This document shows, piece after piece, positions 26,675-58,987 of a DNA stretch of 64,000 nt; within the stretch, counting starts at the first letter, position 1, and each line of letters opens with the position of its first letter. The stretch is from an uncultured Candidatus Saccharibacteria bacterium. GTDB lineage: Bacteria; Patescibacteriota; 4484-211; JAGQKX01. The stretch covers positions 202,403-266,402 of the forward strand of contig CAYMOT010000001.1 in the NCBI GenBank assembly GCA_964392315.1, written 5' to 3'. The notes below the pieces were generated by a model that saw nothing but the letters and a program-made list of their open reading frames with translations, was not told the DNA's origin and did not search any database. The translations under genes and the position numbers were made by a program.

Positions 26675-27762
26675 TCACCAAGATCTCCTTAGAGAGCTTT
26701 AGAAATTTCACTAATTTTTCTGCTGAGTTAGGGCACACTACAGTGGCGCTTGGCCAAAACGCGGTAGGGAAAAGCACTATACTAGAAGCGATTGCGTTGT
26801 TTGGAGGATATCGATTTACCCGGTCGTTATCTGAACTTATTCAATGGGGGAAGCCTTTTGCACGTACAGATCTTGTAATACGTGATAGGGCATATTCTAG
26901 TATGCGCGTTGTCGTACGTCTACGAAACTTGTCTATTGTCGGAGATGATCAACTCATAAGCGTGAATGAAGGAGCAGCTTGTCTACCTATTGTCTACTTC
27001 TCGCCACGAACCGTAACTTTGCTGGAAGATTCGCCGTCATTGCGGAGACGTTTTTTTGATCATGTTTTGTCTACCATATCTCCTGAGTATCGGCATGCGC
27101 TTCGTGTATATCAGCACACGTTGCGGCAACGAAATGCGTCACTAAAACAATCAAGAGCGTCTCAGCATATGGTGTGGGAGGCAGCGCTCGCAGAGCATGG
27201 ATCGTATGTGCAGATTATGAGAAATTGGCTCGCACGAACGTTGAGCCAACAGTTAGAGTTTAATGGTGAACTTGTGTACCACATGAGCCCACAGAGTGGC
27301 CAGCCACTTTTGCCCCAGAGTGGTGATTGGGTAGATAATATTAAAACGCACAGGCAAAAACTACAAGAATTTTTAATTACTAAGTGGTCCGTGTTGCGGG
27401 AACGGGAAATGCACGTTGGATTTACACTGATGGGTGCACAACGTGATGACTGGTGGGTAACTACCGTAGAAGAGGAACGACAGATTAACCTGGGAACTTT
27501 TGGTTCTCGAGGCCAGCAACGTATGGCAATCGTCGCGCTTCAATTTGCGGTGCTTCGACTGTTAGAAGATCTGTTGGAGTATAGACCAATATGGTTATTG
27601 GACGATGTTTTTTCGGAACTAGATACGTTTCATCAAGAAAAAGTTATTGAGCGACTATCGCAGTATCAGACGGTTATCACGTCAGCGCATGAAGAATATC
27701 CGGGGATACACGCAGTTCGAGAGTTATCTGATGTACATACAATCAGGCTTGGAGATCATTGA
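26671..27762 (+). CDS. recF: DNA replication and repair protein RecF. ATG at 26671; the track starts at a GTG at 26641.
   Basis: MITKISLESFRNF N-terminus, Walker A (LGQNAVGKSTILEAI), SMC-like signature (LGTFGSRGQQRMAIVAL), and Walker B (IWLLDDVFSELD). Confidence 0.88.
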   Translation: MITKISLESFRNFTNFSAELGHTTVALGQNAVGKSTILEAIALFGGYRFTRSLSELIQWGKPFARTDLVIRDRAYSSMRVVVRLRNLSIVGDDQLISVNEGAACLPIVYFSPRTVTLLEDSPSLRRRFFDHVLSTISPEYRHALRVYQHTLRQRNASLKQSRASQHMVWEAALAEHGSYVQIMRNWLARTLSQQLEFNGELVYHMSPQSGQPLLPQSGDWVDNIKTHRQKLQEFLITKWSVLREREMHVGFTLMGAQRDDWWVTTVEEERQINLGTFGSRGQQRMAIVALQFAVLRLLEDLLEYRPIWLLDDVFSELDTFHQEKVIERLSQYQTVITSAHEEYPGIHAVRELSDVHTIRLGDH

Positions 27763-29975
27763 TTCGGTGGATCGTTGAGTGGTTGGTCTAGGTCAGGTAT
27801 GTCGCTTGATGCCATCGTATCACTGAGCATATCTGCAGTTAACCCATCAGATGGGCCTTCAGATGGAGCTTGTGCCTCAGCGGTTTCTGACGCCGGAGCG
27901 ATTGGCGCGTCTACAGGTTGGTTCTTGCTTGCTGCGGCAGGCGAAGGTTCAAAAGTTTCTCCTTCAGGGGTAACAGGAACAGTTGCAGGTTCATTTGATG
28001 TGTCCGTTTCTTCTGGCGACTCTGGTACTGTTGTCGCAAAAGTAAACTCTTCATCGTCACCAACTTCCTGTTGCGATATATTCAAGCGTTCGAGTTCTTT
28101 TTGTTGTTTCTCCAACTCCATGGCTTCGAGTTCAGCGGGGTTTGTCGTTACCAGTTGATGTTCATCCTGTGATGCGATTACCTGCATTGCAACATGCGCT
28201 TCTCCGGCAAAAAACAATCCTTCACCAACATTTGCAGATAATAGAAGACCTCGTTCGCCTTCGGACAAGAAAAAGAGCTCAGTTAATTGGTTAATCGCTG
28301 TGGGTGATTGCTTAAATAACACTTGAATAGATGCATTGGTTACAACTGCTTTTCCTTTATCAACGCTCAAAAAGTCTTCAACATCTTGTGTGATAGTAGA
28401 TAGGCCAAGATAATACTTTCTTCCTCTTTTTGCGATACTATGCAAAAAGTTTGCACTATCCGGGTGCTTCATCATAAACCACGCTTCGTCCACGATGAGA
28501 ATCCTCTTTCTGCGATCTCTACGCACGCGCGTCCAAATATAGTCCAGTACCATGAACATACCAAGTGGACGAACACTCTCTTCGAGATCACGTATTCCAA
28601 ACACGGTGAATGTATTATGAATATCGATATTTGTATGACTATCAAAAAGGCCTTTTGCTGAACCTAACACATACGGTTGCAAACGATCGGCAAGCAATTT
28701 TGCTTCAGGGTCTTCCATGCCGAGAAGTGTTTTGTACATGTCTTCAAGAAGCGGCGGTTCCAATTTCTGAGTGTCTGGATCCTGTGTAATTCCTTTTAAC
28801 CGGTATGTCTCGAGGAATGCTCGATCCATGACCGCTTCTTCGCTTGGATTTAACTCGCCCATCATGACTTTGAGCATTGAGTGCAAGGTGAGTACTTTAA
28901 GGCCAAGTTCGTCCTCACCTTCTTCGTACACTTGTGATAGGTCAAATGGGTTAATTTTACTGTCGGAATTAAAATCAAGCGCAATGAACTCTCCGCCGAT
29001 AGACTCAGCCATAGTCCGATACTCATTTTCAGGGTCGATGATAATAATTTCAGTACCGAGCATGAGGGAGCGGAGTGCTTCAAGTTTTACAAAGAAGCTT
29101 TTTCCTGCACCAGATTTAGCAAAAACTACCATATTCGCGTTTGCCAAACTGAACCGGTCGAAAATTATTAAACTGGCATTGTGTTCATTAATTCCGTACA
29201 AAATCCCCGTATCTGATGTGAGACTAGAAGAAGTAAACGGAAAGGTTGTTGCAATAGAGGTTGTATCCATGTTTCGGTACACTTGAACAATATCTTGGAA
29301 GAGCGGTAGGGTAGATCTGAAGCCATCTTCCATTTGAAGGGTAGTTTTACGCGCAACAAGGAGTACCGAACCAAGCACGGATTCTAATTGTTTAGAGATA
29401 AGGTCGAGTTCTTCAAGCGATTCTGCAGGTAGTGTGATATAGAGCGCAAATTGGAAAAATCGTTCACGTTCTGCGACCAACTCTTCTTGCAACGCACGTG
29501 AATCTTGTAAGGCGAGTTGTACGCCAGGATCAAGAATGCGTCCTTGTTGTGCTTCAATATTTAACTCAGTCTCCATTTCGGTAATCTTTCTACGCAAGTT
29601 TTTAAGCACAACTTGGGCATCAACAGGATAATAATAAACCGATATATCGAGAGCGTGTGGAAAATTAATAAGCGGGGATAGCCAGTTTGCGCCTACTTCA
29701 CGAGGATATCCTGCAATGAAGAATGAGCGATAGTACGTATTACCGATCTGGAGATGGTTAAAATCATGCTCAATTCCAGAAGGGGCGATAAGGTCACGTA
29801 TGGTTAAAAGCCCTTGTGCGAATTTTTCTGCTTTCTCTCTTGCTTCTTCAAGCTCTTTTTGTGCAATAGACACCTCGGGATTTGATGCATCTCCTGATGG
29901 CGAGACACTTGTACTGGTTTTTTTACCAGGTCCGGGAAGCAACTTATTGACGAGGGCAGCGACAGGGTTTTTCAT
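27756..29975 (-). CDS. VirB4/TraC/CagE-family type IV secretion/conjugation ATPase, with a long acidic Pro/Ser-rich C-terminal tail.
   Basis: The N-terminal domain is typical of VirB4 (...YYRSFFIAGYPREVGANWLSPLI...). Walker A (VVFAKSGAGKSFFV), Walker B (RILIVDEAWFMM), and the C-terminal RecA-like region. The last ~120 aa are low-complexity (TVPVTPEGETFEPSPAAASKNQPVDAPIAPASETAEAQAPSEG...). Confidence 0.85.
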   Translation of the reverse strand: MKNPVAALVNKLLPGPGKKTSTSVSPSGDASNPEVSIAQKELEEAREKAEKFAQGLLTIRDLIAPSGIEHDFNHLQIGNTYYRSFFIAGYPREVGANWLSPLINFPHALDISVYYYPVDAQVVLKNLRRKITEMETELNIEAQQGRILDPGVQLALQDSRALQEELVAERERFFQFALYITLPAESLEELDLISKQLESVLGSVLLVARKTTLQMEDGFRSTLPLFQDIVQVYRNMDTTSIATTFPFTSSSLTSDTGILYGINEHNASLIIFDRFSLANANMVVFAKSGAGKSFFVKLEALRSLMLGTEIIIIDPENEYRTMAESIGGEFIALDFNSDSKINPFDLSQVYEEGEDELGLKVLTLHSMLKVMMGELNPSEEAVMDRAFLETYRLKGITQDPDTQKLEPPLLEDMYKTLLGMEDPEAKLLADRLQPYVLGSAKGLFDSHTNIDIHNTFTVFGIRDLEESVRPLGMFMVLDYIWTRVRRDRRKRILIVDEAWFMMKHPDSANFLHSIAKRGRKYYLGLSTITQDVEDFLSVDKGKAVVTNASIQVLFKQSPTAINQLTELFFLSEGERGLLLSANVGEGLFFAGEAHVAMQVIASQDEHQLVTTNPAELEAMELEKQQKELERLNISQQEVGDDEEFTFATTVPESPEETDTSNEPATVPVTPEGETFEPSPAAASKNQPVDAPIAPASETAEAQAPSEGPSDGLTADMLSDTMASSDIPDLDQPLNDPPNQ

Positions 29976-29980
29976 AAAAT

Positions 29981-30670
29981 TTAGCCAATGTTTGGCTTAA
30001 CAATTGTACTCGTGTAACCGAGGATATCATTCCGTAATGCGTCATTTTGTCCGCTCTCTGGGTTATAAATTTCGTAGAATAACCGTATAAGTTCTTCTGT
30101 CGTGAGTTGGCGCACACCTACTCCGAGTCTACGAAATTGCCAAAAAAGTTCCTTTGTTCGCTGTCCAAAGACCTGTTGTGCTTTTGCGAGGTCGTCATCG
30201 GAATAGGTAGTAACAACTTTTTCTTTTCCAATAAGCTTAAAAAGCGGATCGAGCAAACCCTGCGAGGCCTGTTCGGTCACCTTTTTTATATGTGGTACGA
30301 CTACATAGAATTTCTTAAAAAGAACCGTGTTTTCTGACACCAGCTCTTGGATAAAGGTAATATAGTTATCCAATTGCTGTCGCAAAATAGAAGTAGGTTG
30401 TAATCTTCGAAAAGACTTAAGATACTCAATATAATTTGTAATATCTACTTGGCGGGTGCGGATAACCACTTGCATAGGAAAGTCAAGCGAGTTGATGAGG
30501 TTCGCATAAGAATAAATAGCTGCGTCTTGCTCGGCTTCAGACAAGAGATCAAAGTTGATTGCCTGTGCTTCAATGACAATGCGAAATTTTCCTCCAGTGA
30601 GAATGAGTACATTGTCTTTTATATCTACGATATCAAGATGGTTTTGTGCCGTTCCAAGGACTCCAGACAT
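29981..30670 (-). CDS. Hypothetical cytoplasmic protein encoded immediately upstream of VirB4; part of the type IV secretion-like cluster.
   Basis: 229 aa with no transmembrane helix. Its stop is 6 nt from the VirB4 start. No family recognised by eye. Confidence 0.35.
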   Translation of the reverse strand: MSGVLGTAQNHLDIVDIKDNVLILTGGKFRIVIEAQAINFDLLSEAEQDAAIYSYANLINSLDFPMQVVIRTRQVDITNYIEYLKSFRRLQPTSILRQQLDNYITFIQELVSENTVLFKKFYVVVPHIKKVTEQASQGLLDPLFKLIGKEKVVTTYSDDDLAKAQQVFGQRTKELFWQFRRLGVGVRQLTTEELIRLFYEIYNPESGQNDALRNDILGYTSTIVKPNIG

Positions 30671-30672
30671 AA

Positions 30673-31932
30673 TTAGTGTGCAGCAATGATTATCGGGCTG
30701 ATGGCCGACCCTTTTAATTCAACAGTTACTGTATCAAAGGCAAGGTTTCCTGATTCTGTCTCAACAAGATAGGTTCCGTTTTCAAGGGGTGTGGTTATGG
30801 AAAATTGCCCCAGTGGGTTAGTTTTTAGAGCACGTAGAGGTTGGCCTTCGCTACTTTTGATAATTACAACGACCCCTTGCAGCAACTTTCCGTTTTGATC
30901 CGTTACAATGCCATTTATTGCATTTGGCGCGTCTGTGATCTTTGGAGTTGTGATTGGGGTAGATTTAGTTGCCTGTTGAGGCATTGCTCCTTGAGTAGTA
31001 GCGACTTGAGGGGTTGTCTGTGTATGCATTGTCACATCTTTCTGTTCCCTCAGAAGCTGATCAAACTTTCGTTTTTGCTCTTGCAGTTGCTGTCGTATTT
31101 GGGTAATGAGATTTTTATCAGCATCGGGTTGTTGCTCCAAATGGCTTAGCTCAGTTTGCGTATTCTGTAGTGCGTGCTCCAAGTTTGAAAGCATGGCTTG
31201 TTTTGCCTTAGCATCTGCTTCCTTTTCGACTTGCGACACATTTGAACTATGTTGACTTGAAAGTTTTTGCTCTTGTTGCAAAACAGCATCACGTAGATCC
31301 GTAATTTTTTGCAAAGAATCGCCGAAATCCATAATAGTTTCTCCTTGTATTGTTGTAAGGCTTTGTTCCAATTGTTGCAAGCTCTTCTCAAGCTTTTGGG
31401 AAGGTGCAGTGGCTGTGGGTTTTGACTGTGGTGACGAGGGCGTGTTCTCAACCACAATGTTGTCTTTCTCAGCAGGCAGCAACTGAGCAACTTCTTTTGC
31501 CGGCTCACTGATGGGATCTAGTCGATCCAGTTCTGCAACTTCCTCTTCGCTCAGAATGGTTGTATTAGCCGAAGTTGATTGCAGATTCTGAATGTCATTT
31601 GCAATGGGGTTTGCGATTGGAGCTGCGTCGAGGTTTGTCTCAGAAACGGCAGGAAGCGGCTCCGTTTCGATTGCTATTGATTCAGCGAGATACTGCTGAG
31701 GTTTTGTTTGCGGTACAAATCGTTTTTGAAGATCTTCAGAAGGCTTTAGTATCTGCTGCTCCCATATTGGAGTTGCTATTGGGTTAATACTAATACGTGA
31801 AAGACGACGGTTTGCGCGCAGGTTAGATCGGCGTTGAAATGCAGTAACCCCAATATTTGACGCCTGTACGATAAGCGGGTTTGTATCGCGACGGCTATGT
31901 GCAAGTTGTCGAAGGGCAGTAGTTTGTTCCAT
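30673..31932 (-). CDS. Gln-rich coiled-coil protein with a C-terminal carboxypeptidase-regulatory-like (CarboxypepD_reg/Cna-B-type) beta-sandwich domain.
   Basis: Long Q/L/E-rich heptad-like central region (LQQLEQSLTTIQGE..., LQNTQTELSHLEQQ...). C-terminal ITDQNGKLLQGVVVIIKSSEGQPLRALKTNPLGQFSITTPLENGTYLVETESGNLAFDTV, a typical CarboxypepD_reg pattern. Confidence 0.45.
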   Translation of the reverse strand: MEQTTALRQLAHSRRDTNPLIVQASNIGVTAFQRRSNLRANRRLSRISINPIATPIWEQQILKPSEDLQKRFVPQTKPQQYLAESIAIETEPLPAVSETNLDAAPIANPIANDIQNLQSTSANTTILSEEEVAELDRLDPISEPAKEVAQLLPAEKDNIVVENTPSSPQSKPTATAPSQKLEKSLQQLEQSLTTIQGETIMDFGDSLQKITDLRDAVLQQEQKLSSQHSSNVSQVEKEADAKAKQAMLSNLEHALQNTQTELSHLEQQPDADKNLITQIRQQLQEQKRKFDQLLREQKDVTMHTQTTPQVATTQGAMPQQATKSTPITTPKITDAPNAINGIVTDQNGKLLQGVVVIIKSSEGQPLRALKTNPLGQFSITTPLENGTYLVETESGNLAFDTVTVELKGSAISPIIIAAH

Positions 31933-31937
31933 ATATG

Positions 31938-32459: not shown

Positions 32460-32676
32460 GTTAGCTTAACAGTTTTCAAGATAATCACGATCAAATAGAG
32501 CAAATTCTAATTAAAGTATAGAGGAAAATAGGCTGGAATGAAAGGTGTTAGGTAACTCTTATTAGAGAATTATTTCTTTGCATAGTAACCTACGAAACCG
32601 TTACAGCTTTCAAGGGTATAGAAGGGTAGCTCATTATATGAAAAAAAGGCGGGTAGTCGTGCTCATGAGACCGAGA

Positions 32677-33738: not shown

Positions 33739-33742
33739 AGAT

Positions 33743-37349: not shown

Positions 37350-37351
37350 AG

Positions 37352-39640: not shown

Positions 39641-39646
39641 AGGGCA

Positions 39647-42600
39647 TTATGGTGTTCGGCCTCCGCCGCCGCCAGTCCCACCTCCTCCACCAGAAGGAGC
39701 AGCGGGTGTAGGTGTGGCTGCAAAGTCTCTGTTGTATCGAGCACCTTCTTGGTAGAGTTTTTTGAGGCCTTGAATGTCTCTTCTGTCTCGTTGGCCTGGT
39801 AAAGGAGGAAGTGCACCTTGAACGTCAGCCGGATTTTGCTTAAGTGCCAAGGCCATTGCCTCCATATATATCCCGTGTGCATCACCTGGGGCCTTCTTAA
39901 GTTCGCTTGCAGATTTGACACTTCCTAGGCTTGCGTTACCACTTCTTCTACCCAGTTCTGCTAAATATTGGGCGTGTGTACCTCTAAATTCACTCGTACT
40001 AAGCTTGACAGCACCCGCCTTTGTTCCAGCAGGTGCAATTCCGCTGTCAACTTCTCTTTTGCTCCATCGCGCGAGTTTGCCACCTGAGTATTGTGGAAGT
40101 TTTCCAAAATTGATGATCCGATTAGGATCATTTATTGATAGATCAAGACCAGTGTGTATTGCTTTCTGTTGTTGCGCTCCTAGGCCGGTGCGGCCTACGA
40201 TGTCAACGCTTGGGAGAACCTTTTTACGCAATTGCTGTTCAGCTGCTGCGTACTGTTGCCCTCCGTAGAGTCGTTTCAATAGCGGAGCATCAGTTGTGGG
40301 TAGATTGTAATCGAGGTCAGTGCCCGCTTTTATTCCCGCTGCTTCTGCTTTTTTGAGAGAAGCGTCAAATTTACGTTCACGTTTTTCTTTTGCCTCAGCT
40401 ATTCGGCTACCAGCAAAAGGCAACCGTTCGACCAAGGGTCTGACATATGTTTCGCCCCGTTCTTCAGCCTCTCTTTTGAGTCGTGTCTCTCGGCCTCTTT
40501 GCGTAGCAGAGCGTATGTATCCTTTCTCGCGCCGTTCCTCTACTGCATCTAGGCTTGTGTAGTCAGACACACCGGAGGCCATATTTTGTACCTTTCCTCC
40601 CAATCCTTTCCCGATACCTTGTAGCATTCCTAATGCCTGTCCAGCAAGTCCACCACCACCGAGAAATTGCGCGGCAAGACTAGCGCTCTTTGTACTCATA
40701 AAGAGCGTCCCTCCGCCGATCAAGAATACTCCCGCCTGGACAAACAAACTATCAGCCTCTGCTGTTTTGCTGACTAAAAGAATTCCAATGGCGATAAATA
40801 ATGCGGTGATTGTTTGCATGAATGCCAGAGGTAGCAGCGTCTTAATCCATAGGTTTCTCATACTTCTGAACCAAGGAAGCACGGAAAGCGCAAGAAATAG
40901 GGGAGCTACGATAGTAATTACCCAAATAATAAGGTATCTCCCGAGGAATACTGCCAATAACGATACGACTAATCCTAGAATTGCCAAAGCACCGGCCAAC
41001 ACCGCTCCGATAATTGGAATTATTATTGAACCTCCGGTTCCTACAACCGAAGTAAGAAAAGTTGCAACCCCGGTTGAAATTACTGTGCTTAAGAATGATG
41101 TAATTGCAACAATCCCTCCAGCTGCACCCGCTCCTGCAATTGCGTTGGTAGAAATTCCGGTCGTTTGTAATACATCAAAAATAATTGCAAAAATCCAGGC
41201 TGTTAGAATATTATTTACATCCAAAACTCCCTGTACAATCAACACACTGAGATTTGCAAATATAATACCAATCACCAGCTGTGGAAGCATGACATTAGCG
41301 CCCCAACTTTTTATGTCATACCCCAAGGCATGGTTTATCCCGATTAACAGGAGCAGGAATACAAAGATGATGTTCGCAACTCCCCTGATGATGTTCCAGG
41401 TAACAATAACGCCTGTCGAAACGGTTAATGGTTCGAGAATAAGTATGTTTCGAAGGGTTTGAAGCCCTTTGCCTGCGAGTTCTGTGAAACCGTTTGCAAT
41501 TCTGCATCCGAGTACTGGTATCCGAACTGCTTCAAATCCTTTAAAGACGAAGCCAATTCTAATCCCTACATTGTACATATGTTTCTCTGGTTCAGTCCAA
41601 CCGGCAGGTACCAAATTCCGTTGCAACTCGGCCTGATGTTCTGCTTCAAGTCTTTCCTCGAGAATTTGGCAGGGTGGGCGGAAATCAGCAGTCCATGTAT
41701 TTGGTGTCCCAACAGCGACTCCCTGTTCGACATCTGGTCGTGTCACGAAGGTTTCAGACAACACTTTATCGTCGGCCGTGACACTAATAGTGTACGTGTT
41801 TGAGGCCTCGACATTTCTTCTACAGAGTTCTGGTGAAACAAAACTTCCAGTCGGACAAGCTGTGTCTGGGTCTCTCATCTCAAGAGGAAATATTAAGCTC
41901 CACTCACCAGATTTGTCTCTTAACTGGTCTTCACTGACATTATAGAGGTGTTCACCTAAGCTGTTGTGGACTGTCGCTGTTTGATAAGAAGATGCCCCTT
42001 TAAAACGAACAATAATATCAGCAACGGTCGGAGTAGCGGCATAGGCTCTATCAACTCCAGGCATAATAGTGCGTACAGGTATAAACCCTAGTAACTTATA
42101 TCCTGATGGAACAGGAGGGGTGTATTGAGAGAGAGTAACTGCATTTGCTCCGGTAAATTCGACAAGAGCAGAACCGTTGTAGGGTGTTATTATTTCTTTA
42201 GGATTTAATCCAGTACCGTCAATCATAATACGTAATGAAAGCGGGGGATCAATCAACCCACCGGTAATACCTTCAATAGGTACCAATTTGTCATGCGGGA
42301 TATGTATGAAGCACTTGCTATCAGCAGAGAACTTCTCTATATTGTCTGCGTCGATATTTCGAATCTCATTTGGGTCTGCGAGTGAAACGGTCGCATTATA
42401 AGAACGACAATTTCGTTGGGCGTTCAGGCCTGCCGGGACACTTGTATTTTTAATAACTTCAATTAGTATACCTTTTACCGTGGGATCACTTTTAGGTGCG
42501 GTTGCCGTAATGTCGACTTGAAGTGGTCCGTTTGTGCTAATAACTTCTTTGGTTTTTATCGGAGTTTTGTCCCATAGTGGTTCGTTAAGAAACGGGTCGA

Positions 42601-44047
42601 ATGTAGCTCCTCGAGGATTTGTGGAATAACCAACCGTGTCGTCATAAAAAATGTAGGTAGAGAAACTGTTTTGTGTGTAATCTTGTGGGTTAGTACCCGA
42701 CGTTGTGACTATGTCAGTTGCACAATTACCCAAAACAGTTAGAGACACGCGAGGGTACGTGAACGGTTGTCTATTGTCACATTGTGTACCGAGTCGTCCC
42801 CCATCGACCATTCCATATGACTGTGTATTGACCATGCTCACATTTCCTAGATTCGGCCCTGCAAATGCCCTCCCTGATTGTTGGATTACTCGTCCCCAAA
42901 GAATAAGTTTGTTCTGCAGTAATGCAATGTCATTCCTAATAGCTGTTGGTTCAACCAACTTGTACCAATCGTTCCCTAAATCAACTGTTCCATTTATATC
43001 TGTATCACGTGAAACTCGCACGACACCAAAGCCTATTTGTGTTGACTTGATTTTAGTATTGTTGTCCATAAGATCAGATTGATATGTCGTGCCCCCTTCT
43101 CTTCGCCAAATTGTTACGGCGTATACTCCGGGAGGTGCGAAAGCCATAAATATCCGATCGTTTCGCGTATGGTCAGCTGTGTTAGTAATTGCCTCAAGAG
43201 GGTGTGTGGTGCGTCCAGCAACGATAAGGTTGTCACCAGGATACAAGTCTCTACTTCCAGCGTTAATATAATCAAACCACACCCTGCGAGCCACTAGTTC
43301 ATAGGCACTATCATCAGAAAAATTAACACCTCCATACATTTGTACATGTTTAGACGTAATCTTCAGTGTAGTTGTCGGTATGAGCGGGAAGGTATTAATA
43401 TTATTTGCTATATCAACCCTTGTTTCTTGTGTTAAAAAGGATAATCCTAAACGCACTTCTTCCTGTAGCTGGGTGTAGATAGCGGTTAAATTGGAAGCAT
43501 CACCAATGTTGTATGAAAAAACAGAACCAATGCGGTCGGGATCAGGGTTGGTAGTCGAAGGTAGTTGTGGCATTCGAAAAGGCACATCAAGGCCTTGGAT
43601 TGCTGTCGCATCGCAAGGTGCTACTACAAAACTGACACAGTCAGTACGTAGAACCCTGCCCGATCCGACATCGTAGCGGAATGGGAAATAGACGCCGAAT
43701 TTTTGTCCATTAGGAAGACCCTGCGCTTGAAACGATCCATCCGCTCTAACTTGTGTGCGAACCGCAAGGTTGTTGATGATAAATGAAGAGCCTCCCCAAC
43801 TGTCATATGCATACACGTATACAGGAAGACCAGCCATTCGTTGATAGGCAGCGCTGGGGTCATACGCACTTCCTACAAAGGCAGGTATGAATTGTCCAGA
43901 AAACACCGCCGTATTGTTTGCCGACTGCGACGATTGTGCAGAAACTGACGGCGGTGTTAAAACCTGGACAATGGCGATGGTCAAGAGAAGTACGCTTACT
44001 AATCTCACGCATCTTTCCACTAATAAAAGATATCGACTTGGCAGCAT
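39647..44047 (-). CDS. Giant VirB6/TrbL-like polytopic channel protein: signal peptide, a ~840 aa extracellular N-terminal domain, a multi-transmembrane core, and a cytoplasmic C-terminal region ending in a Gly-rich tail.
   Basis: 1466 aa. Signal or anchor (LVSVLLLTIAIVQVLTPPSVSAQS). Residues ~850-1120 contain six to eight hydrophobic helices (IIFVFLLLLIGINHALGYD..., GGIVAITSFLSTVISTGVATFL..., AVLAGALAILGLVVSLLAVFLG...), typical of VirB6/ConG. C-terminus ...PAAPSGGGGGTGGGGGRTP. Confidence 0.6.
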   Translation of the reverse strand: MLPSRYLLLVERCVRLVSVLLLTIAIVQVLTPPSVSAQSSQSANNTAVFSGQFIPAFVGSAYDPSAAYQRMAGLPVYVYAYDSWGGSSFIINNLAVRTQVRADGSFQAQGLPNGQKFGVYFPFRYDVGSGRVLRTDCVSFVVAPCDATAIQGLDVPFRMPQLPSTTNPDPDRIGSVFSYNIGDASNLTAIYTQLQEEVRLGLSFLTQETRVDIANNINTFPLIPTTTLKITSKHVQMYGGVNFSDDSAYELVARRVWFDYINAGSRDLYPGDNLIVAGRTTHPLEAITNTADHTRNDRIFMAFAPPGVYAVTIWRREGGTTYQSDLMDNNTKIKSTQIGFGVVRVSRDTDINGTVDLGNDWYKLVEPTAIRNDIALLQNKLILWGRVIQQSGRAFAGPNLGNVSMVNTQSYGMVDGGRLGTQCDNRQPFTYPRVSLTVLGNCATDIVTTSGTNPQDYTQNSFSTYIFYDDTVGYSTNPRGATFDPFLNEPLWDKTPIKTKEVISTNGPLQVDITATAPKSDPTVKGILIEVIKNTSVPAGLNAQRNCRSYNATVSLADPNEIRNIDADNIEKFSADSKCFIHIPHDKLVPIEGITGGLIDPPLSLRIMIDGTGLNPKEIITPYNGSALVEFTGANAVTLSQYTPPVPSGYKLLGFIPVRTIMPGVDRAYAATPTVADIIVRFKGASSYQTATVHNSLGEHLYNVSEDQLRDKSGEWSLIFPLEMRDPDTACPTGSFVSPELCRRNVEASNTYTISVTADDKVLSETFVTRPDVEQGVAVGTPNTWTADFRPPCQILEERLEAEHQAELQRNLVPAGWTEPEKHMYNVGIRIGFVFKGFEAVRIPVLGCRIANGFTELAGKGLQTLRNILILEPLTVSTGVIVTWNIIRGVANIIFVFLLLLIGINHALGYDIKSWGANVMLPQLVIGIIFANLSVLIVQGVLDVNNILTAWIFAIIFDVLQTTGISTNAIAGAGAAGGIVAITSFLSTVISTGVATFLTSVVGTGGSIIIPIIGAVLAGALAILGLVVSLLAVFLGRYLIIWVITIVAPLFLALSVLPWFRSMRNLWIKTLLPLAFMQTITALFIAIGILLVSKTAEADSLFVQAGVFLIGGGTLFMSTKSASLAAQFLGGGGLAGQALGMLQGIGKGLGGKVQNMASGVSDYTSLDAVEERREKGYIRSATQRGRETRLKREAEERGETYVRPLVERLPFAGSRIAEAKEKRERKFDASLKKAEAAGIKAGTDLDYNLPTTDAPLLKRLYGGQQYAAAEQQLRKKVLPSVDIVGRTGLGAQQQKAIHTGLDLSINDPNRIINFGKLPQYSGGKLARWSKREVDSGIAPAGTKAGAVKLSTSEFRGTHAQYLAELGRRSGNASLGSVKSASELKKAPGDAHGIYMEAMALALKQNPADVQGALPPLPGQRDRRDIQGLKKLYQEGARYNRDFAATPTPAAPSGGGGGTGGGGGRTP

Positions 44048-44080
44048 AGTCTTAATAACTAATGTCCTGGATTAGCTCAT

Positions 44081-44455
44081 TTAAGCTACCCCAACCAGCG
44101 ATTGAAGCCCAGGGATAAGCCCAATAATAAACCTCCAGAGGGCATAAGCTGCTGCTACAATGATAAGTCCGATTACTGCGTTTGTAATACGCTTTCGTGC
44201 TGCTCCTACGTTATCTTCATTGTCACCTGCGGTTAGATAGGTGAATGCACCCCAGAATAAGTAAAGCAATACTGCGACAGCGGCAACAACGAAAACAAGG
44301 TCAATGCCACGTCTGATTAAATCTCCAAAATCAGTAAATCCGGTACTTGGTCGAGAAATACCTGTGAGTAGCTGTGCGTGAACGGGAGCGGCTGTTGCTA
44401 ATGTTGCAATGCCTGTAGAAGCTGTAATCAATGCACTTTTTATTTTATCTGTCAT
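44081..44455 (-). CDS. VirB2/TrbC-like pilin paralog 1 (signal peptide plus two hydrophobic segments).
   Basis: Signal (ALITASTGIATLATAAPVHAQ). Hydrophobic segment 1 (LVFVVAAVAVLLYLFWGAFTYL). Conserved LTAGD motif. Hydrophobic segment 2 (AVIGLIIVAAAYALWRFIIGLIPG). Confidence 0.5.
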   Translation of the reverse strand: MTDKIKSALITASTGIATLATAAPVHAQLLTGISRPSTGFTDFGDLIRRGIDLVFVVAAVAVLLYLFWGAFTYLTAGDNEDNVGAARKRITNAVIGLIIVAAAYALWRFIIGLIPGLQSLVGVA

Positions 44456-44522
44456 GCGGTTCCACCTCCTTTGATACTTAACTCAGAATAGCATACGCTA
44501 TACGGCGTCGCAATAGCTGTGA

Positions 44523-44930
44523 TTAGGTAATGAAATTTTTTAATCCAGGGATCAAATCTAGAATGAGCTTGAAGATAATAAATACGCTGCCTACACCCAC
44601 AAGCCCAACAATAGACCATGTAATGTTACTACGTGCTTTTTCCAGTTTCTCAGTACTATCCCCAGCGGTTAGATAATCAAACGCTGCCTTAAAGAAGTTA
44701 AAGAGCAATATTATGGCCCCAAACCCAAGGGCGCCCGTTACCATAGTGGTAATGAGTTGACCTAAGACTAACAATGTGCAATGAGGCCACGACAGGATTT
44801 CGCCATCAGGTAAGCCGTCACAGCTAGGAAGAGTCCCTCCGCCTTGAGCATACGCGTTATGAGAGTGAACCGTAAACGTAAGAAACAAGACAAATACTAT
44901 TGGTAAGAATAGAAGCAGGTTTTTCTTCAT
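44523..44930 (-). CDS. VirB2/TrbC-like pilin paralog 2.
   Basis: Signal (LLLFLPIVFVLFLTFTVHSHNAYAQ). Same architecture with YLTAGDSTEKLEKARSNITWSIVGLVGVGSVFIIFKLILDLIPG. Confidence 0.5.
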   Translation of the reverse strand: MKKNLLLFLPIVFVLFLTFTVHSHNAYAQGGGTLPSCDGLPDGEILSWPHCTLLVLGQLITTMVTGALGFGAIILLFNFFKAAFDYLTAGDSTEKLEKARSNITWSIVGLVGVGSVFIIFKLILDLIPGLKNFIT

Positions 44931-44934
44931 TGTA

Positions 44935-45330
44935 TTAAGATCCTGTAATTACAATCTTCCATGAGTCAGGAAGGATGGACTCAAATGCCCTAATAAAAAC
45001 ATATCCACCAACTACTATAACAAGCCCCACCATAGACTGGGTGAGTGCCTCGCGGCCGTTTTGCAATCTTTGCGGGTCTCCTTGAGCAGTAATAAACATA
45101 AAAAATCCGGCGGTAGCTCTATATATAGAGACTAAAACGCCAATTAAGATCATTAAGTCAAGCATAAAATTTGCAAAATCTTCGACATTGACACAACTAT
45201 CGGTGATCGCGACGTAGGTGGCATCGTTAGGACAATTAACGTTTGGCGTGGGGCGCTGGGCGTATACGGTATTCAGGGAAGCTAGAATGAGGAAAAGAGC
45301 GACACATCCTGGAATTAATATTCTCTTCAT
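44935..45330 (-). CDS. VirB2/TrbC-like pilin paralog 3. ATG at 45330 gives a canonical signal peptide; the track start at 45399 is over-extended.
   Basis: MKRILIPGCVALFLILASLNTVYAQ signal. FITAQGDPQRLQNGREALTQSMVGLVIVVGGYVFIRAFESILPD matches the other two paralogs. Confidence 0.5.
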   Translation of the reverse strand: MKRILIPGCVALFLILASLNTVYAQRPTPNVNCPNDATYVAITDSCVNVEDFANFMLDLMILIGVLVSIYRATAGFFMFITAQGDPQRLQNGREALTQSMVGLVIVVGGYVFIRAFESILPDSWKIVITGS

Positions 45331-45395
45331 ATAGGTATCATACCAACACAAACATAAATGTGAAATGTACACATTTGTGTAAATGTACCGAAGTG

Positions 45396-47624
45396 TCACT
45401 GTACTTTAACTAAAATACTTTCTCCTTGCTCAAATACATGAGTCCCTTGGGAGAGGAGAAGGTCGGTCTGAATATCTGGATATTTGTCTCTTTCAAGTTT
45501 TGAGATGTAGATGTATGAAACATTATACTTCCTTAATAACTCTGCTCTTTTTGTCTGGTCCGTCGTTGTATAGATCACACGTACATCTTCAACCCGTTGA
45601 GCGACCGTATCTGAGCCGAATGTCTCTAACACACGTGATGGAGGTTCCACTGGTTCTGCATACGAGCCTCTCCATAACCATTCGTGTACTGGCCACCCCA
45701 TAACCGTGGGGAGTCCAGTATTTGATGCGATTCGGGCATAGTCTGTATAGCTGTCTCCGACTGCTTCAACAATAACTGGCTGTCCTGTAATATTTTTGTT
45801 TATCCAATCAATCGCCGCGGCATCATGTTTAAGTGTTTTCGTTACGTATGCAGTGCCATTGAGGCCTTTATATTCGCTGAATGCGTCGGTTACGGTTTTT
45901 ATTGCCATGTAAGGATACAGTAACGTAGAACCGATGAGCAGATAAGACAGCAACACATCGAGTCGCCAGAGAACTTGGAGTGATTCTTTTTTTATGGTGT
46001 AGAGCATCCGAATAAATGCGTATGCGCTTGCAATAGATAACAAAATCCACGCTGCATAATAGAGTTTGAACATCGTATTGGCACGATAGTAATCAGGTAC
46101 GTAAATATCTTTGACGTATATGATTTCTGGTGCTATTAAGAGTGCAATTCCTAATCCGATTAGTAAAAGAGCGAATGTATCGCTCGAATTCCTCGTTGCT
46201 TGTTCTGGCGTGTTGCCGTCAGAAGGTTCGTTCTTAACGGAGATTGATACTTTGAGCGCCCCTGCAATTTTTTGTACGATTCGTTCTTTCATGTTTCTTA
46301 TGTGCAGAAAGCGTGCCAGTGTTTGACGCAACGCAAAAATAACGAAACTGACCGCGATAAACAGATACATTCCCCAAAGTATGAGGAATTCTTTGAGCGG
46401 AGAGAGGGTCGTTACTTTTCCGATGCCATCAGAAATTGGCTTTACGGTGAGCCAAAATGGCGCAAACAGTCCAACACTTCCTATGAGCAAAGGTATCGCA
46501 AACAGGGCGGCAGTCTCTAACGCTTCCCACCAGGCCAAAAGCCTGCTACGTGTAGAGTGTGCAATAGTGTGATACGCAAGGTACACAAACACACAGCCAC
46601 TGAGTACAAGGTATATAGGAAAATCCCAAGAGTTAGTGGCATAGCTTGTTCCTACCATAAGCGCGAGGATAGCAAGAGACAAAAGTAGGCGTTTGTTCTT
46701 GAGGCTGTGTGCACTAATGCTCAGGTTGTCCCGTGAAATAAAGAGATTACACAATATTCCAAGAGCTACGAGAACAAATGGAATATTGCTCACGTGTGCA
46801 TGCAAATCCGCCACGATAAAACTGTATACCGGGAATTCGTTGATAGTGAAAGGAATCAACCTGCTCGCTGTAGCGTACCAGTAGGTGTCTAAGGAGGAGA
46901 TATGAAGTACTGTATGAAGATTTCCGGTCAGTGCCGTAAGGATACCTCCCAGAATACCCCCAATAAATATAATAATTTTGTGAATATGCGGGAATACATT
47001 TCTGAGTAGTGTCGCGGTGATGCTGAAACTTCCCATGAATGATATTGCAAACAGGTACGCAATCTGTAGGTTATAAGTAAAATTAGGAGGTAGGTGTGAA
47101 ATCTGCGTAATTACCGCTGCGACGTAGTGTCCAAAGTAGTAATAATTAATTGGTTCGCTTGCAAAAAAATGGTCTACTGGTGGGAAATACTCAGCACGCA
47201 AGATTGAGAGCATAAACCCGTAGTCCATAAATTTTTCCAAACCATGAATGTCTGGGTTGTATGCACGGACTATGCTCCAAAAAACAAGAAGGCACAAGAA
47301 TAATACCTCACTAATGATGACTACCTTCCATGGTATTGCAGAAATAGTTGATTTTATAGATCTGGAGTGAAAAATCTGTACGCTCCAAATGAGTACCGAA
47401 ATAAGAACGGCAATAAGGATGGTGTGTAGTGGAGAGAAGCGTAGTACTCTTGTAATAGCGAGGAGCCATACAATATATGAGACTATCCCAATGCCTACCA
47501 CTTTGCTGAGGATCCATCCCTTATCAACAAATCGAGGGAGTATCGTCTTGCTCAACGGCCAGAAGCCAACTCCGAGCGCAAAGATTGCGGTATAAAATTG
47601 TAGAAATGCATAAGGATCAGACAT
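45396..47624 (-). CDS. Large polytopic membrane protein (742 aa) with a soluble C-terminal domain; GT-C-type glycosyltransferase-like (family unassigned).
   Basis: About fourteen to sixteen transmembrane helices through residue ~560, then a ~180 aa extracytoplasmic C-terminal domain. It overlaps the pilin gene by 4 nt and is the first gene of the block upstream of the type IV secretion-like genes. Confidence 0.5.
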   Translation of the reverse strand: MSDPYAFLQFYTAIFALGVGFWPLSKTILPRFVDKGWILSKVVGIGIVSYIVWLLAITRVLRFSPLHTILIAVLISVLIWSVQIFHSRSIKSTISAIPWKVVIISEVLFLCLLVFWSIVRAYNPDIHGLEKFMDYGFMLSILRAEYFPPVDHFFASEPINYYYFGHYVAAVITQISHLPPNFTYNLQIAYLFAISFMGSFSITATLLRNVFPHIHKIIIFIGGILGGILTALTGNLHTVLHISSLDTYWYATASRLIPFTINEFPVYSFIVADLHAHVSNIPFVLVALGILCNLFISRDNLSISAHSLKNKRLLLSLAILALMVGTSYATNSWDFPIYLVLSGCVFVYLAYHTIAHSTRSRLLAWWEALETAALFAIPLLIGSVGLFAPFWLTVKPISDGIGKVTTLSPLKEFLILWGMYLFIAVSFVIFALRQTLARFLHIRNMKERIVQKIAGALKVSISVKNEPSDGNTPEQATRNSSDTFALLLIGLGIALLIAPEIIYVKDIYVPDYYRANTMFKLYYAAWILLSIASAYAFIRMLYTIKKESLQVLWRLDVLLSYLLIGSTLLYPYMAIKTVTDAFSEYKGLNGTAYVTKTLKHDAAAIDWINKNITGQPVIVEAVGDSYTDYARIASNTGLPTVMGWPVHEWLWRGSYAEPVEPPSRVLETFGSDTVAQRVEDVRVIYTTTDQTKRAELLRKYNVSYIYISKLERDKYPDIQTDLLLSQGTHVFEQGESILVKVQ

Positions 47625-47632
47625 CGTTTTGG

Positions 47633-58952: not shown

Positions 58953-58987
58953 CGCCTTTTCCGTTGAACACTAATTGTATACATTAC

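What the first reader, a model, noticed from the sequence alone, without database searches (positions are those of the whole stretch)
27756..45399. Single-strand type IV secretion/conjugation-like cluster with pilins, a VirB6-like giant, VirB3-like, VirB4 and dedicated cell-wall hydrolases
About 17.6 kb of co-directional, tightly packed or overlapping minus-strand genes. In transcription order they are:
- three VirB2-like pilin paralogs
- a 1466-aa VirB6-like channel protein
- an M23-like secreted protein
- a bitopic, possibly VirB8-like, protein
- a GH5 + M23-like hydrolase
- a membrane-anchored beta-rich protein
- a ~217 bp internal intergenic region
- a VirB3-like protein
- a coiled-coil/CarboxypepD_reg protein
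- a cytoplasmic hypothetical protein
- VirB4

No VirD4 coupling protein, relaxase or VirB11 is present in the window. That composition suggests a minimal, Gram-positive-style secretion or pilus apparatus rather than a conjugative element. It fits the episymbiont (Saccharibacteria-like) lineages, where such systems are thought to mediate host attachment or effector delivery. Most accessory components are unrecognisable by motif and could be novel.
Basis: partly seen in the sequence, partly recalled or inferred. Interest (0 to 1): 0.85.

Follow-up and report, generated by a model that had tools for sequence, protein, structure and literature searches.

The report
Patescibacterial (WWE3) chromosomal type IV secretion locus
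This is the origin-proximal, non-conjugative type IV secretion / pilus gene cluster already described across the ultra-small Patescibacteria, here in a WWE3-type genome with lineage-specific wall-hydrolase and giant membrane-protein accessories; a correct call, not a new kind of system.

Summary
Window 27756-45399 (minus strand) is a tight co-directional cluster. It encodes three VirB2-like pilins, a 1466-aa polytopic giant, and a secreted 762-aa protein with a degenerate M23/LytM domain. It also encodes a bitopic 321-aa protein, a GH5-containing 886-aa hydrolase, a 353-aa anchored protein, PrgI (VirB3-like), a 419-aa coiled-coil protein and VirB4.

No VirD4, relaxase or VirB11 lies anywhere in the 64 kb. 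The cluster sits about 4 kb from dnaA/dnaN. Gene order is conserved in relatives whose VirB4 is 72-85% identical. The nearest named genomes are candidate division WWE3, not Saccharibacteria.

This is the Patescibacteria-clade, MPF_FATA-derived T4SS already described by Wang 2023 and Quinonero-Coronel 2025. It is essential in a Saccharibacterium and its function is unknown.

Three reader claims are weaker than stated:
- VirB6 identity of the giant has only weak sequence support, and the structure model failed.
- The VirB8-like guess is unsupported.
- Neither M23-like domain has a complete catalytic motif set.

Lineage-specific features:
- an ~800-aa N-terminal ectodomain on the VirB6-like protein
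- a p762-p321-hydrolase module
- conserved upstream GT-C glycosyltransferase genes

Verdict: new member of a known kind, moderate-low interest.

The parts
44935..45330 (-). Pilin 1: VirB2-like, signal peptide plus two TM helices. The maximal ORF extends to 45399 from a GTG.
   Evidence: Pfam T4SS_pilin scores 19.2 bits, below the GA of 26.6. Local profile hits to pilin paralogues and orthologues. Orthologues start at the signal peptide. 23-24% identical to pilins 2 and 3.
44523..44930 (-). Pilin 2: VirB2-like.
   Evidence: Pfam T4SS_pilin 1.1e-06, 29.1 bits, above GA. Signal peptide plus two TM helices.
44081..44455 (-). Pilin 3: VirB2-like.
   Evidence: Pfam T4SS_pilin 1.9e-09, 37.9 bits. NCBIfam Mbov_0395 pilin-like family scores 25.4 bits, below the cutoff of 40.
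39647..44047 (-). 1466-aa giant. Layout: signal peptide, ~800-aa ectodomain with a conserved tip at aa 37-230, a polytopic block at aa ~850-1150 (candidate VirB6), and a ~300-aa charged C-terminal tail.
   Evidence: TM prediction. The TM block belongs to a very large family: 21,559 cluster representatives, most of them 900-1200 aa with the block near the N-terminus. Homologues sit just upstream of PrgI/TrsD/VirB4 in other Patescibacteria loci. TrbL/VirB6 is the only recurrent Pfam hit in family members, and always below GA. hhalign against Tn916 Orf15 gives E=0.0099. The AF2 model was unusable, at pLDDT 42.
37352..39640 (-). 762-aa secreted Cys-rich protein. Central beta-sandwich region, then a C-terminal degenerate M23/LytM-like domain at aa ~545-715.
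36384..37349 (-). 321-aa bitopic protein (TM at 16-34) with an extracytoplasmic alpha/beta region. Fold unknown.
   Evidence: TM prediction. No Pfam or NCBIfam hit. The profile has no PDB sequence hit. hhalign against PrgL and Tn916 Orf13 is not significant. Found only in WWE3-type loci, always after the p762 homologue.
33743..36403 (-). 886-aa membrane-anchored or secreted modular hydrolase. GH5 domain at aa 131-343, a Cys-rich middle, and a C-terminal M23-like domain.
   Evidence: Pfam Cellulase 8.7e-10, above GA. PDB 3ZIZ GH5 mannanase 1e-4. NEP (235) and GEFG (338) motifs are present. No Pfam M23 hit. The C-terminal domain against canonical M23 of orthologues gives hhalign E=1.6e-4, with the first zinc-ligand His replaced by Tyr and PHVHF retained.
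32677..33738 (-). 353-aa N-terminally anchored protein occupying a variable slot.
   Evidence: Gene call of 353 aa. TM at 11-29. Homologue found only in L002. The slot holds unrelated 149-187-aa proteins in L003 and L004.
32460..32676 (.). 217-bp intergenic gap that splits the cluster into a distal block (pilins to p353) and a proximal block (PrgI to VirB4).
   Evidence: (a T-run followed by TATAAT). Shorter gaps of 40-79 nt lie at the same place in relatives. No Rfam hit. Promoter and terminator scans are not above background.
31938..32459 (-). PrgI family protein (VirB3-like) with two TM helices.
   Evidence: Pfam PrgI 2.2e-11, 44.5 bits against a GA of 27. Conserved next to TrsD/VirB4 across Patescibacteria loci.
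30673..31932 (-). 419-aa Q-rich coiled-coil protein with a C-terminal beta-sandwich. No TM helix or signal peptide predicted.
   Evidence: CarboxypepD_reg 31.0 bits against a GA of 32.3. Weak SMC-type coiled-coil hits. Present only in WWE3-type loci.
29981..30670 (-). 229-aa TrsD/TraC-like protein: the detached N-terminal domain of VirB4.
   Evidence: Precomputed PF26593 TraC-like. NCBIfam TrsD 1.6e-7. Matches positions 12-133 of the CD1110 VirB4 model, whereas the VirB4 ORF matches positions 175-735. Fused to VirB4 in L016.
27756..29975 (-). VirB4 ATPase of the monoderm MPF_FATA/CD1110 type, with a ~110-aa acidic, Pro-rich C-terminal tail.
   Evidence: 26% identity, E=9e-43, to pCF10 PrgJ residues 222-772. 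PDB 4AG5 2.2e-49. Walker A (AKSGAGKS) and Walker B (ILIVDE) are present.
45396..51090 (-). Conserved upstream neighbours: DUF2298 (45396-47624) and two PMT-like GT-C membrane glycosyltransferases (47633-49327 and 49324-51090). Possibly the same transcription unit.
   Evidence: Pfam hits. The same three genes lie directly upstream of pilin 1 in L002 and L024, with 5-19 nt gaps.
22175..27762 (.). Replication-origin context: dnaA (22175-23593, minus), dnaN (23919-25094, plus), an SH3_3 protein, and recF (26641-27762, plus) convergent with virB4.
   Evidence: Pfam hits. Cumulative GC-skew minimum near 24 kb. Two near-consensus DnaA boxes in the dnaA-dnaN gap.

Best explanation
**What it is.** The locus is the chromosomal, origin-proximal type IV secretion system typical of Patescibacteria (CPR), here in a WWE3-type genome. 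It descends from monoderm (MPF_FATA) conjugation machinery but is not a conjugative element.

**Shown by sequence.**
- A VirB4 ATPase whose N-terminal domain is a separate TrsD-like protein.
- A PrgI/VirB3-like membrane partner.
- A large polytopic candidate VirB6.
- Three divergent VirB2-type pilins.
- Sec-exported wall-active proteins: a GH5 domain with both catalytic Glu motifs, and two LytM/M23-like domains that each lack one catalytic motif.

**Inferred mechanism.**
1. VirB4, TrsD and PrgI dock on the VirB6-like platform in the cytoplasmic membrane and drive extraction and polymerisation of the pilins into a pilus or tube.
2. The hydrolase module (p762, p321, p886) opens the epibiont's own wall, and possibly the host's, locally.
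3. The ~800-aa ectodomain of the giant and the fast-evolving surface proteins make the host-facing part.
4. The tube then serves as a contact-dependent conduit to the host cell.

**Direction of transport.** The composition is VirB2/3/4/6 with no coupling protein, VirB11 or relaxase nearby. That is the make-up of the known T4SS-type importers (H. pylori ComB, archaeal Ced). I therefore favour pilus-mediated contact and uptake of host macromolecules over export of cytoplasmic effectors. Direction and cargo remain untested.

**What the confidence covers.** The stated confidence applies to the identity and general mode of action (non-conjugative Patescibacteria-type T4SS that builds a pilus or conduit). 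For the import direction alone I would give about 0.4.
For: **Identity of the core.** Searches give curated-threshold hits for VirB4/CD1110, PrgI, T4SS_pilin and GH5, plus TrsD/TraC-like. Searches show homology to PrgJ and to a Gram-positive VirB4 structure.

**Chromosomal core locus, not an island.**
- The same order and the same virB4|recF junction occur in relatives with 72-85% VirB4 identity.
- GC content is like the flanks.
- dnaA and dnaN lie ~4 kb away.

**No conjugation genes in the window.** No T4CP, relaxase or VirB11 in 64 kb.

**Lineage.** The best named homologues are candidate division WWE3, CPR3 and Microgenomates.

**Conservation pattern.**
- The VirB6-like TM block, PrgI, TrsD, VirB4 and pilins are the components shared with other Patescibacteria classes.
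- Cytoplasmic parts are 85-89% conserved, against 21-47% for extracytoplasmic parts. That pattern is expected of host-facing surfaces.

**Literature.**
- The same architecture and origin proximity are described in PMC12102498.
- Essentiality, pilins and the lack of T4CP and relaxase in S. epibionticum are in PMC10633639.
- The role is called 'completely unknown', with uptake proposed, in PMC11665869.
- Tubular structures at the parasite-host interface, which the authors say may be T4SS pili, in a strain shown to acquire host RNA, are reported in bioRxiv 10.64898/2026.06.21.733656.
Against: - VirB6 identity of the giant is not established. There is no Pfam, NCBIfam or PDB sequence hit, only sub-threshold TrbL hits in relatives. 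The AF2 model failed and there is no BLAST match in plasmids.
- No VirB8-like component was found.
- The rest of the genome could not be searched, so a distant T4CP or relaxase is not excluded. PMC12102498 finds VirD4 homologues far from virB4 in many genomes.
- The preference for import is an argument from composition only.
- The hydrolases carry Sec signals and could simply be housekeeping wall enzymes.
- Both M23-like domains look catalytically impaired.
- No expression or functional data exist for this organism.
Confidence: 0.8

Rival explanations
1. Effector-export machine. The system translocates proteins from the epibiont into or onto the host bacterium to subvert or lyse it, as pathogen T4SSs do.
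For: This is the usual speculation in the literature (PMC10633639; PMC11665869). The 419-aa protein has neither a TM helix nor a signal peptide yet ends in a normally extracellular beta-sandwich domain, so it could be a substrate. Fast-evolving accessory proteins fit a host arms race.
Against: No coupling protein or VirB11 lies in 64 kb to recruit cytoplasmic substrates. The secreted proteins in the locus carry Sec signals. No recognisable toxin or effector domain is present.
Confidence: 0.25
2. Pilus or adhesion organelle only. The machinery exists to build a VirB2 pilus and a large surface adhesin (the giant's ectodomain) for host attachment, with no substrate transfer.
For: Three pilin paralogues. 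An ~800-aa ectodomain with a conserved tip. Glycosyltransferase genes conserved next to the pilins. No substrate-recruiting ATPase.
Against: Patescibacteria already rely on type IV pili for attachment and motility (PMC12857230). The T4SS is separately essential in S. epibionticum. A polytopic channel-type protein and dedicated wall hydrolases suggest a trans-envelope conduit.
Confidence: 0.15
3. Conjugative or integrative element, or its remnant. The cluster is a mating-pair-formation module of an ICE whose relaxase and VirD4 lie outside the window or were lost.
For: VirB4, TrsD and PrgI are homologous to pCF10/pGO1/Tn916-type conjugation proteins. Relaxases and T4CPs are sometimes encoded far from virB4.
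Against: There is no integrase, relaxase, T4CP or flanking-repeat signature. GC content equals that of the flanks. The locus sits between recF/dnaN/dnaA and housekeeping-type envelope genes, and this junction is conserved among relatives at 72-85% VirB4 identity. Only 109 relaxases were found in 3,035 Patescibacteria genomes, against 2,417 genomes with VirB4.
Confidence: 0.05

Closest known systems
Patescibacteria-clade T4SS. Examples: Ca. Southlakia epibionticum ML1 SEML1_0006-0019 (Wang et al. 2023, PMC10633639) and the survey by Quinonero-Coronel et al. 2025 (PMC12102498).
   Same: MPF_FATA-type VirB4, an adjacent TrsD homologue, PrgI/VirB3, a divergent VirB6 candidate, a tandem array of divergent VirB2-like pilins (23-31% identity here, against ~25% reported), non-VirB1 peptidase and glycosidase genes in the locus, no relaxase or T4CP nearby, and a position next to dnaA/dnaN.
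   Different: The lineage is WWE3-like rather than Saccharimonadia. VirB4 is the last gene and the pilins are first. The VirB6 candidate carries an ~800-aa N-terminal ectodomain, whereas most family members have the TM block near the N-terminus. A WWE3-restricted p762-p321-hydrolase module is present, along with a GH5 domain and conserved upstream PMT/DUF2298 genes. None of GH5, PMT or DUF2298 appears in the main text of the 2025 survey.
Monoderm conjugative T4SSs of class MPF_FATA: pCF10 Prg/Pcf, pGO1 Trs, and Tn916/ICEBs1.
   Same: VirB4 of the CD1110 family, at 26% identity to PrgJ. TrsD-like and PrgI-like partners. A polytopic membrane protein and a large modular wall hydrolase. No outer-membrane core (VirB7/9/10).
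   Different: No relaxase, T4CP (PcfC/VirD4) or accessory relaxosome genes. Pilins are present, whereas these systems generally lack them. The hydrolase is GH5 plus M23-like, not lysozyme/SLT plus CHAP/NlpC-P60, and shows no similarity to PrgK. No detectable PrgL/TcpC-type VirB8. The locus is chromosomal and vertically conserved.
T4SS-type importers: the H. pylori ComB system and the archaeal Ced system. Their composition is cited from established knowledge; ComB is cited in PMC11665869.
   Same: A reduced component set built around VirB4 plus small membrane or pilin-like proteins and a polytopic protein, with no VirD4, VirB11 or relaxase. VirB4 also gives a weak CedB hit (2e-9, far below cutoff).
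   Different: ComB has a diderm core (VirB7-10). Ced lacks VirB2-type pilins and wall hydrolases. No evidence of DNA or RNA uptake exists for this locus.
Mollicutes ICE transfer modules (Mbov_0395 pilin-like protein and Mbov_0397 VirB4).
   Same: Pilin 3 matches the Mbov_0395 pilin-like family and VirB4 matches the Mbov_0397 family. This is a monoderm MPF_FATA relative that also has a small VirB2-like protein.
   Different: Both hits are well below the curated equivalog cutoffs (25 against 40 bits, and 238 against 590 bits). Those elements are mobile ICEs with DDE transposase and relaxase functions.

Membership tests
Patescibacteria-clade T4SS (MPF_FATA-derived) | VirB4 ATPase of the monoderm MPF_FATA / CD1110 type with intact Walker motifs | tested here: met
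   NCBIfam NF045971 scores 391 bits against a cutoff of 325. Pfam P-loop_TraG and CagE_TrbE_VirB are above GA. Walker A and B are visible in the sequence. The top homologues are all CPR proteins. No phylogeny was run.
Patescibacteria-clade T4SS (MPF_FATA-derived) | TrsD-like protein (VirB4 N-domain homologue) encoded next to virB4 | tested here: met
   PF26593 TraC-like. NCBIfam TrsD 1.6e-7, plus a match to positions 12-133 of the CD1110 VirB4 model. It lies 5 nt upstream of virB4.
Patescibacteria-clade T4SS (MPF_FATA-derived) | PrgI/VirB3-like membrane protein near virB4 | tested here: met
   Pfam PrgI 44.5 bits against a GA of 27.
Patescibacteria-clade T4SS (MPF_FATA-derived) | Array of divergent VirB2-like pilins in the locus | tested here: met
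   Two of the three are above the Pfam GA and the third is a paralogue. Pairwise identity is 23-31%.
Patescibacteria-clade T4SS (MPF_FATA-derived) | VirB6-like polytopic membrane protein | tested here: inconclusive
   The topology and position fit. The TM block is homologous to proteins upstream of PrgI/TrsD/VirB4 in other classes. TrbL is the only recurrent Pfam hit in family members, but always below GA, with a best E of 3.5e-4. hhalign against Tn916 Orf15 gives 0.0099 and against PrgH 0.05-0.55. The AF2 model was unusable.
Patescibacteria-clade T4SS (MPF_FATA-derived) | No relaxase or coupling protein associated with the locus; chromosomal position near dnaA/dnaN | tested here: met
   None in 64 kb. 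dnaA, dnaN and recF are adjacent. The rest of the genome is not testable.
Patescibacteria-clade T4SS (MPF_FATA-derived) | Required for host-dependent (epibiotic) growth | not testable with these tools
   Known only for S. epibionticum, by Tn-seq (PMC10633639).
Conjugative MPF_FATA T4SS (pCF10 / Tn916 / ICEBs1 type) | Relaxase and VirD4/TcpA-type coupling protein | tested here: not met
   Absent from all ORFs of 110 aa or more in the window. Outside the window is unknown.
Conjugative MPF_FATA T4SS (pCF10 / Tn916 / ICEBs1 type) | VirB8-like (NTF2-like) bitopic protein such as PrgL, TraM or TcpC | tested here: inconclusive
   The 321-aa bitopic protein has no PDB sequence hit by profile. hhalign against PrgL and Tn916 Orf13 gives E=0.13-0.14. 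There is no Pfam VirB8-type hit. No structure was obtained.
Conjugative MPF_FATA T4SS (pCF10 / Tn916 / ICEBs1 type) | VirB1-type bifunctional hydrolase (lysozyme/SLT plus CHAP/NlpC-P60) | tested here: not met
   p886 is GH5 plus an M23-like domain. It shows no similarity to PrgK and has no SLT or CHAP Pfam hit. A 'WATES' motif is only a lead.
Peptidase_M23 (LytM) catalytic domain | HxxxD and HxH zinc/catalytic motifs, and a Pfam score above GA | tested here: not met
   p762 scores 15.8 bits against a GA of 28.7. Its HxxxD is conserved but HxH is replaced by a variable THLQ-type sequence across 16 homologues. p886 has no Pfam hit, the His of HxxxD is replaced by Tyr, and PHVHF is retained. The fold-level relationship is plausible; catalytic membership is not.
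Glycoside hydrolase family 5 | Pfam Cellulase domain with NEP acid/base and nucleophile Glu | tested here: met
   39 bits against a GA of 23.5. NEP at 235 and GEFG at 338. GH5 mannanase 3ZIZ at 1e-4. The substrate is unknown.

The most novel reading that the evidence does not exclude
In this WWE3 subgroup the conserved T4SS core may have been fitted with a lineage-specific, rapidly evolving 'host-envelope interface'. Its parts would be:
- a VirB6-type channel protein extended by an ~800-aa N-terminal ectodomain with a conserved tip
- a three-gene module: a catalytically degenerate LytM protein (p762), a bitopic partner (p321) and an interchangeable hydrolase (GH5 or M23)
- GT-C glycosyltransferases co-transcribed with the pilins

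The three-gene module is duplicated en bloc in one relative. It would behave like a regulator-plus-enzyme pair, in the manner of EnvC or NlpD activating amidases.

On this reading the module determines host range by opening a specific host wall polymer. The extended VirB6 would replace the missing VirB8 and VirB5 functions.
Probability: 0.2. Interest if true: 0.6.

Novelty: new member of a known kind. Interest (0 to 1): 0.33.

Why it matters
The Patescibacteria T4SS is one of the few machines shown to be essential for the epibiotic lifestyle, and its function is openly described as unknown (PMC11665869). This window adds no new kind of system.

It does give a clean, complete WWE3-type example with several useful features:
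- an explicit split VirB4 (TrsD plus VirB4)
- an unusually extended VirB6 candidate
- a hydrolase module whose catalytic content differs between close relatives: GH5 only here, and genuine M23 in others
- glycosyltransferase genes conserved beside the pilins

These are concrete handles for comparative and structural work on how the conserved core is adapted to different hosts. They are hypotheses, not findings that change the field.

Tried and rejected
**Structure prediction and fold search.**
1. AF2 on the giant's TM block (aa 800-1180, 6-sequence MSA) gave pLDDT 42, so it was not used for fold search.

**Sequence searches that found nothing useful.**
3. Profile searches against PDB sequences for the giant's TM block, the giant's ectodomain, p321, p762 and TrsD gave nothing significant.
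4. hhalign of the p321 profile against pCF10 PrgL and Tn916 Orf13 was not significant, so the VirB8 idea is unsupported. Pfam at E up to 10 gave only a faint PepSY-type hit (0.08).
5. tblastn of the VirB6-like block against 72,556 plasmids found no relevant match.
6. A word-indexed homologue search with the giant's C-terminal half missed even its orthologues, returning only 5 distant hits. Orthologues were recovered from loci instead.

**Regulatory and RNA scans.**
7. Promoter and terminator scans were not above the shuffled background. The leaderless-promoter idea at 45364-45337 is therefore only a note.
8. Rfam found no RNA element in the cluster.

**Rejected readings.**
9. The ICE or island reading was rejected on conserved chromosomal context and composition.
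10. The Saccharibacteria assignment was rejected. The closest informatively named homologues are WWE3. The 'uncultured Candidatus Saccharibacteria' titles on some TPA MAGs are generic labels.

Full report
**Observation.**

The minus strand of window 27756-45399 carries a run of long, co-directional ORFs. Gaps between them run from -20 to +67 nt, apart from one 217-bp gap at 32460-32676.

- VirB4 (27756-29975) hits Pfam P-loop_TraG at 1.4e-24 and CagE_TrbE_VirB above GA. It also hits the NCBIfam equivalog 'VirB4-like conjugal transfer ATPase, CD1110 family' at 391 bits against a cutoff of 325.
- VirB4 aligns to pCF10 PrgJ residues 222-772 at 26% identity, E=9e-43. It matches the Gram-positive VirB4 C-terminal domain structure 4AG5 at 2e-49.
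- 31938-32459 is a PrgI (VirB3-like) protein, at 44.5 bits against a GA of 27.
- Two of the three small proteins pass the T4SS_pilin GA. The third (19.2 bits) is a clear paralogue. The three are 23-31% identical to each other.
- The 886-aa protein has a GH5 domain above GA, with NEP and GEFG motifs.

**Corrections.**

It matches TrsD (1.6e-7) and positions 12-133 of the CD1110 VirB4 model, while the VirB4 ORF matches positions 175-735. VirB4 is therefore split into two genes here. In one distant locus (L016) the two parts are a single ORF.
- The '434-aa' ORF is a 353-aa gene, 32677-33738.
- Pilin 1 most likely starts at 45330.
- The co-directional block continues upstream through DUF2298 and two PMT-like membrane glycosyltransferases.

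**What is absent.**

Every ORF of 110 aa or more in the 64-kb window was scanned with Pfam. There is no VirD4/TcpA-type coupling protein, relaxase, VirB11 or integrase.

Instead, virB4 converges on recF. Beyond recF lie an SH3 protein, dnaN and dnaA, with the cumulative GC-skew minimum near 24 kb. GC content of the cluster matches the flanks.

**Lineage and conservation.**

The identical VirB4 occurs on a 435-kb NCBI contig. The closest informatively named homologues are candidate division WWE3 (72-77% identity), followed by CPR3 and Microgenomates.

Three independent related contigs carry the same gene order, including the virB4|recF junction. Their VirB4 is 72-85% identical to this one. The order is: PMT, PMT, DUF2298, pilins, giant, p762-like, p321-like, hydrolase, variable gene, PrgI, coiled-coil protein, TraC-like, VirB4.

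Local profile searches across 20 loci separate a shared core from lineage-specific parts:
- The VirB6-like TM block, PrgI, TrsD, VirB4 and pilins are shared with Paceibacteria-type loci, and even with MAGs labelled Nanoarchaeota.
- p762, p321, p353 and p419 are confined to WWE3-type loci.

Divergence against the closest relative (L004) follows a gradient:

| Component | Identity to L004 |
|---|---|
| TrsD | 89% |
| VirB4 | 85% |
| PrgI | 70% |
| Pilins | 40-62% |
| p762 | 58% |
| Giant (overall) | 47% |
| Giant, tip (aa 37-230) | 72% |
| Giant, TM block | 62% |
| Giant, mid-ectodomain | 34% |
| p419 | 44% |
| p321 | 29% |
| p886 | 21% |

**Tests of the weaker labels.**

*VirB6.* The giant has no direct Pfam, NCBIfam or PDB hit.
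- An exhaustive HMM search with its TM block found 21,559 cluster representatives. They are typically 900-1200 aa with the block at residues ~100-400. The window protein is unusual in placing the block after an ~800-aa ectodomain.
- TrbL/VirB6 is the only Pfam family that recurs among family members. It appears in 4 of 38 sampled members, with a best E of 3.5e-4, plus P0148 and P0151. All hits are below GA.
- hhalign aligns the same helix (the R/Q-x11-P motif) to Tn916 Orf15 (E=0.0099) and to PrgH (E=0.05-0.55).
- The AF2 model was unusable.
- Verdict: plausible, not proven.

*VirB8.* No support from the PDB profile search, hhalign against PrgL or Orf13, or Pfam.

*M23.*
- p762 gives a sub-threshold M23 hit. 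Its HxxxD motif is conserved, but HxH is replaced by a variable sequence across 16 homologues.
- p886 has no Pfam M23 hit. Its C-terminal domain aligns to the genuine M23 domains of orthologues at E=1.6e-4, with the first zinc-ligand His replaced by Tyr.
- Orthologous hydrolases in relatives carry bona fide M23 domains, at 52-84 bits.
- In this genome the only domain with a complete catalytic signature is therefore GH5.
- In L003/L024 the unit p762-like, p321-like, hydrolase is duplicated en bloc. That suggests the three work together.

**Comparison with the literature.**

The locus matches the Patescibacteria T4SS described by Quinonero-Coronel et al. 2025 (PMC12102498). That survey reports:
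- VirB4 in 2,417 of 3,035 genomes, forming a clade nested in MPF_FATA
- TrsD as the most abundant associated component
- PrgI, divergent VirB6, rare VirB8, and VirB2 arrays at ~25% identity
- almost no relaxases
- frequent proximity to dnaA/dnaN

Wang et al. 2023 (PMC10633639) showed that the Saccharibacterial counterpart (SEML1_0006-0019) is essential, has pilins, and lacks recognisable coupling and relaxase proteins. Reviews call its role 'completely unknown' and suggest either effector delivery or nucleotide acquisition (PMC11665869; PMC12857230). A 2026 preprint shows tubular structures at a parasite-host interface that may be T4SS pili, in a strain that acquires host RNA.

**Mechanism.**

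*Shown:* the component identities listed above.

*Inferred:*
1. VirB4, TrsD and PrgI on a VirB6-type platform polymerise the VirB2-type pilins.
2. Sec-exported wall-active proteins open the envelope locally.
3. The giant's ectodomain and other fast-evolving surface proteins face the host.

The set VirB2/3/4/6 without VirD4, VirB11 or relaxase is the composition of the known T4SS-type importers, ComB and Ced (established knowledge). On that basis I favour contact plus uptake over export of cytoplasmic effectors. This is an argument from composition only. A distant T4CP cannot be excluded.

**Verdict.**

The finding is real and correctly interpreted in outline. It is a new member (WWE3-type) of an already described kind. 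The lineage-specific accessories are worth noting but are not established as novel functions.

Noticed in passing
window 27756-45399 relative to 23594-23918: The whole T4SS cluster lies ~4 kb to the right of the dnaA-dnaN gap. That gap holds two near-consensus DnaA boxes, and the GC-skew minimum falls there. The cluster is transcribed toward the gap, i.e. head-on to replication. The convergent virB4|recF junction is the same in L003 and L004.
   Followed up: partly
window 45396-51090 (also 51099-52550): DUF2298 plus two PMT-like GT-C membrane glycosyltransferases sit directly upstream of the pilins, followed by a 483-aa polytopic protein with no family hit. The same three genes precede pilin 1 in L002 and L024, with 5-19 nt gaps. 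This could mean glycosylation of pilins or of the envelope linked to the T4SS. None of these genes appears in the main text of the 2025 survey.
   Followed up: partly
window 45337-45364 (minus strand): The best promoter-like site of the region is TTCACA-16 nt-TGgTATGAT. It ends 6 nt before the pilin-1 ATG at 45330, which would give a leaderless transcript. Overall promoter counts are not above the shuffled background.
   Followed up: partly
L016:8942-11902, L017, L019: MAGs labelled Nanoarchaeota/archaeon carry a related VirB4 (33-38% identity) together with pilin-like and small VirB6-like ORFs. In L016, TrsD and VirB4 form one 986-aa ORF. Whether these bins are truly archaeal was not checked.
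   Followed up: no
L024:10001-21161 (same contig as L003): A tandem en bloc duplication of the module. The first copy is an 843-aa p762-like protein, a 340-aa p321-like protein, a 317-aa M23 peptidase and a 352-aa protein with faint beta-propeller hits. The second copy is a 702-aa p762-like protein, a 349-aa p321-like protein and an 834-aa GH5 hydrolase.
   Followed up: partly
window 34421-34456 (p886 aa ~650-661): The motif LGLWATESLFGQ (ESAWNQ or ESAWSQ in orthologues) resembles the catalytic Glu-Ser motif of SLT lytic transglycosylases. It is preceded by an 'ERNINPFILLG' helix that resembles SLT family helix 1. There is no Pfam SLT hit, so this is a motif-level lead for a VirB1-like activity only.
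   Followed up: partly
window 27756-28100 (VirB4 aa 626-739): VirB4 carries a ~110-aa acidic, Pro/Ala/Ser/Thr-rich, apparently disordered C-terminal tail that is absent from PrgJ and from the PDB template.
   Followed up: no
window 25091-26674: A 527-aa protein with a C-terminal SH3_3 wall-binding domain is inserted between dnaN and recF. It is conserved in L004 and in L001, the Logan contig that carries the window's own locus.
   Followed up: no
window 58506-59447 and 61108-61809: smpB lies next to a tmRNA gene (Rfam, 79.7 bits). A ComFC-like protein (double zinc ribbon plus phosphoribosyltransferase) lies ~16 kb from the pilins. In class ABY1, T4SS loci are reported to co-localise with comF.
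   Followed up: no
window 14817-17975: A 1052-aa fusion of an NAD-dependent epimerase/dehydratase with a DUF4012 domain, next to Wzz-, Wzy_C- and RNase H-like genes, on the other side of the origin.
   Followed up: no
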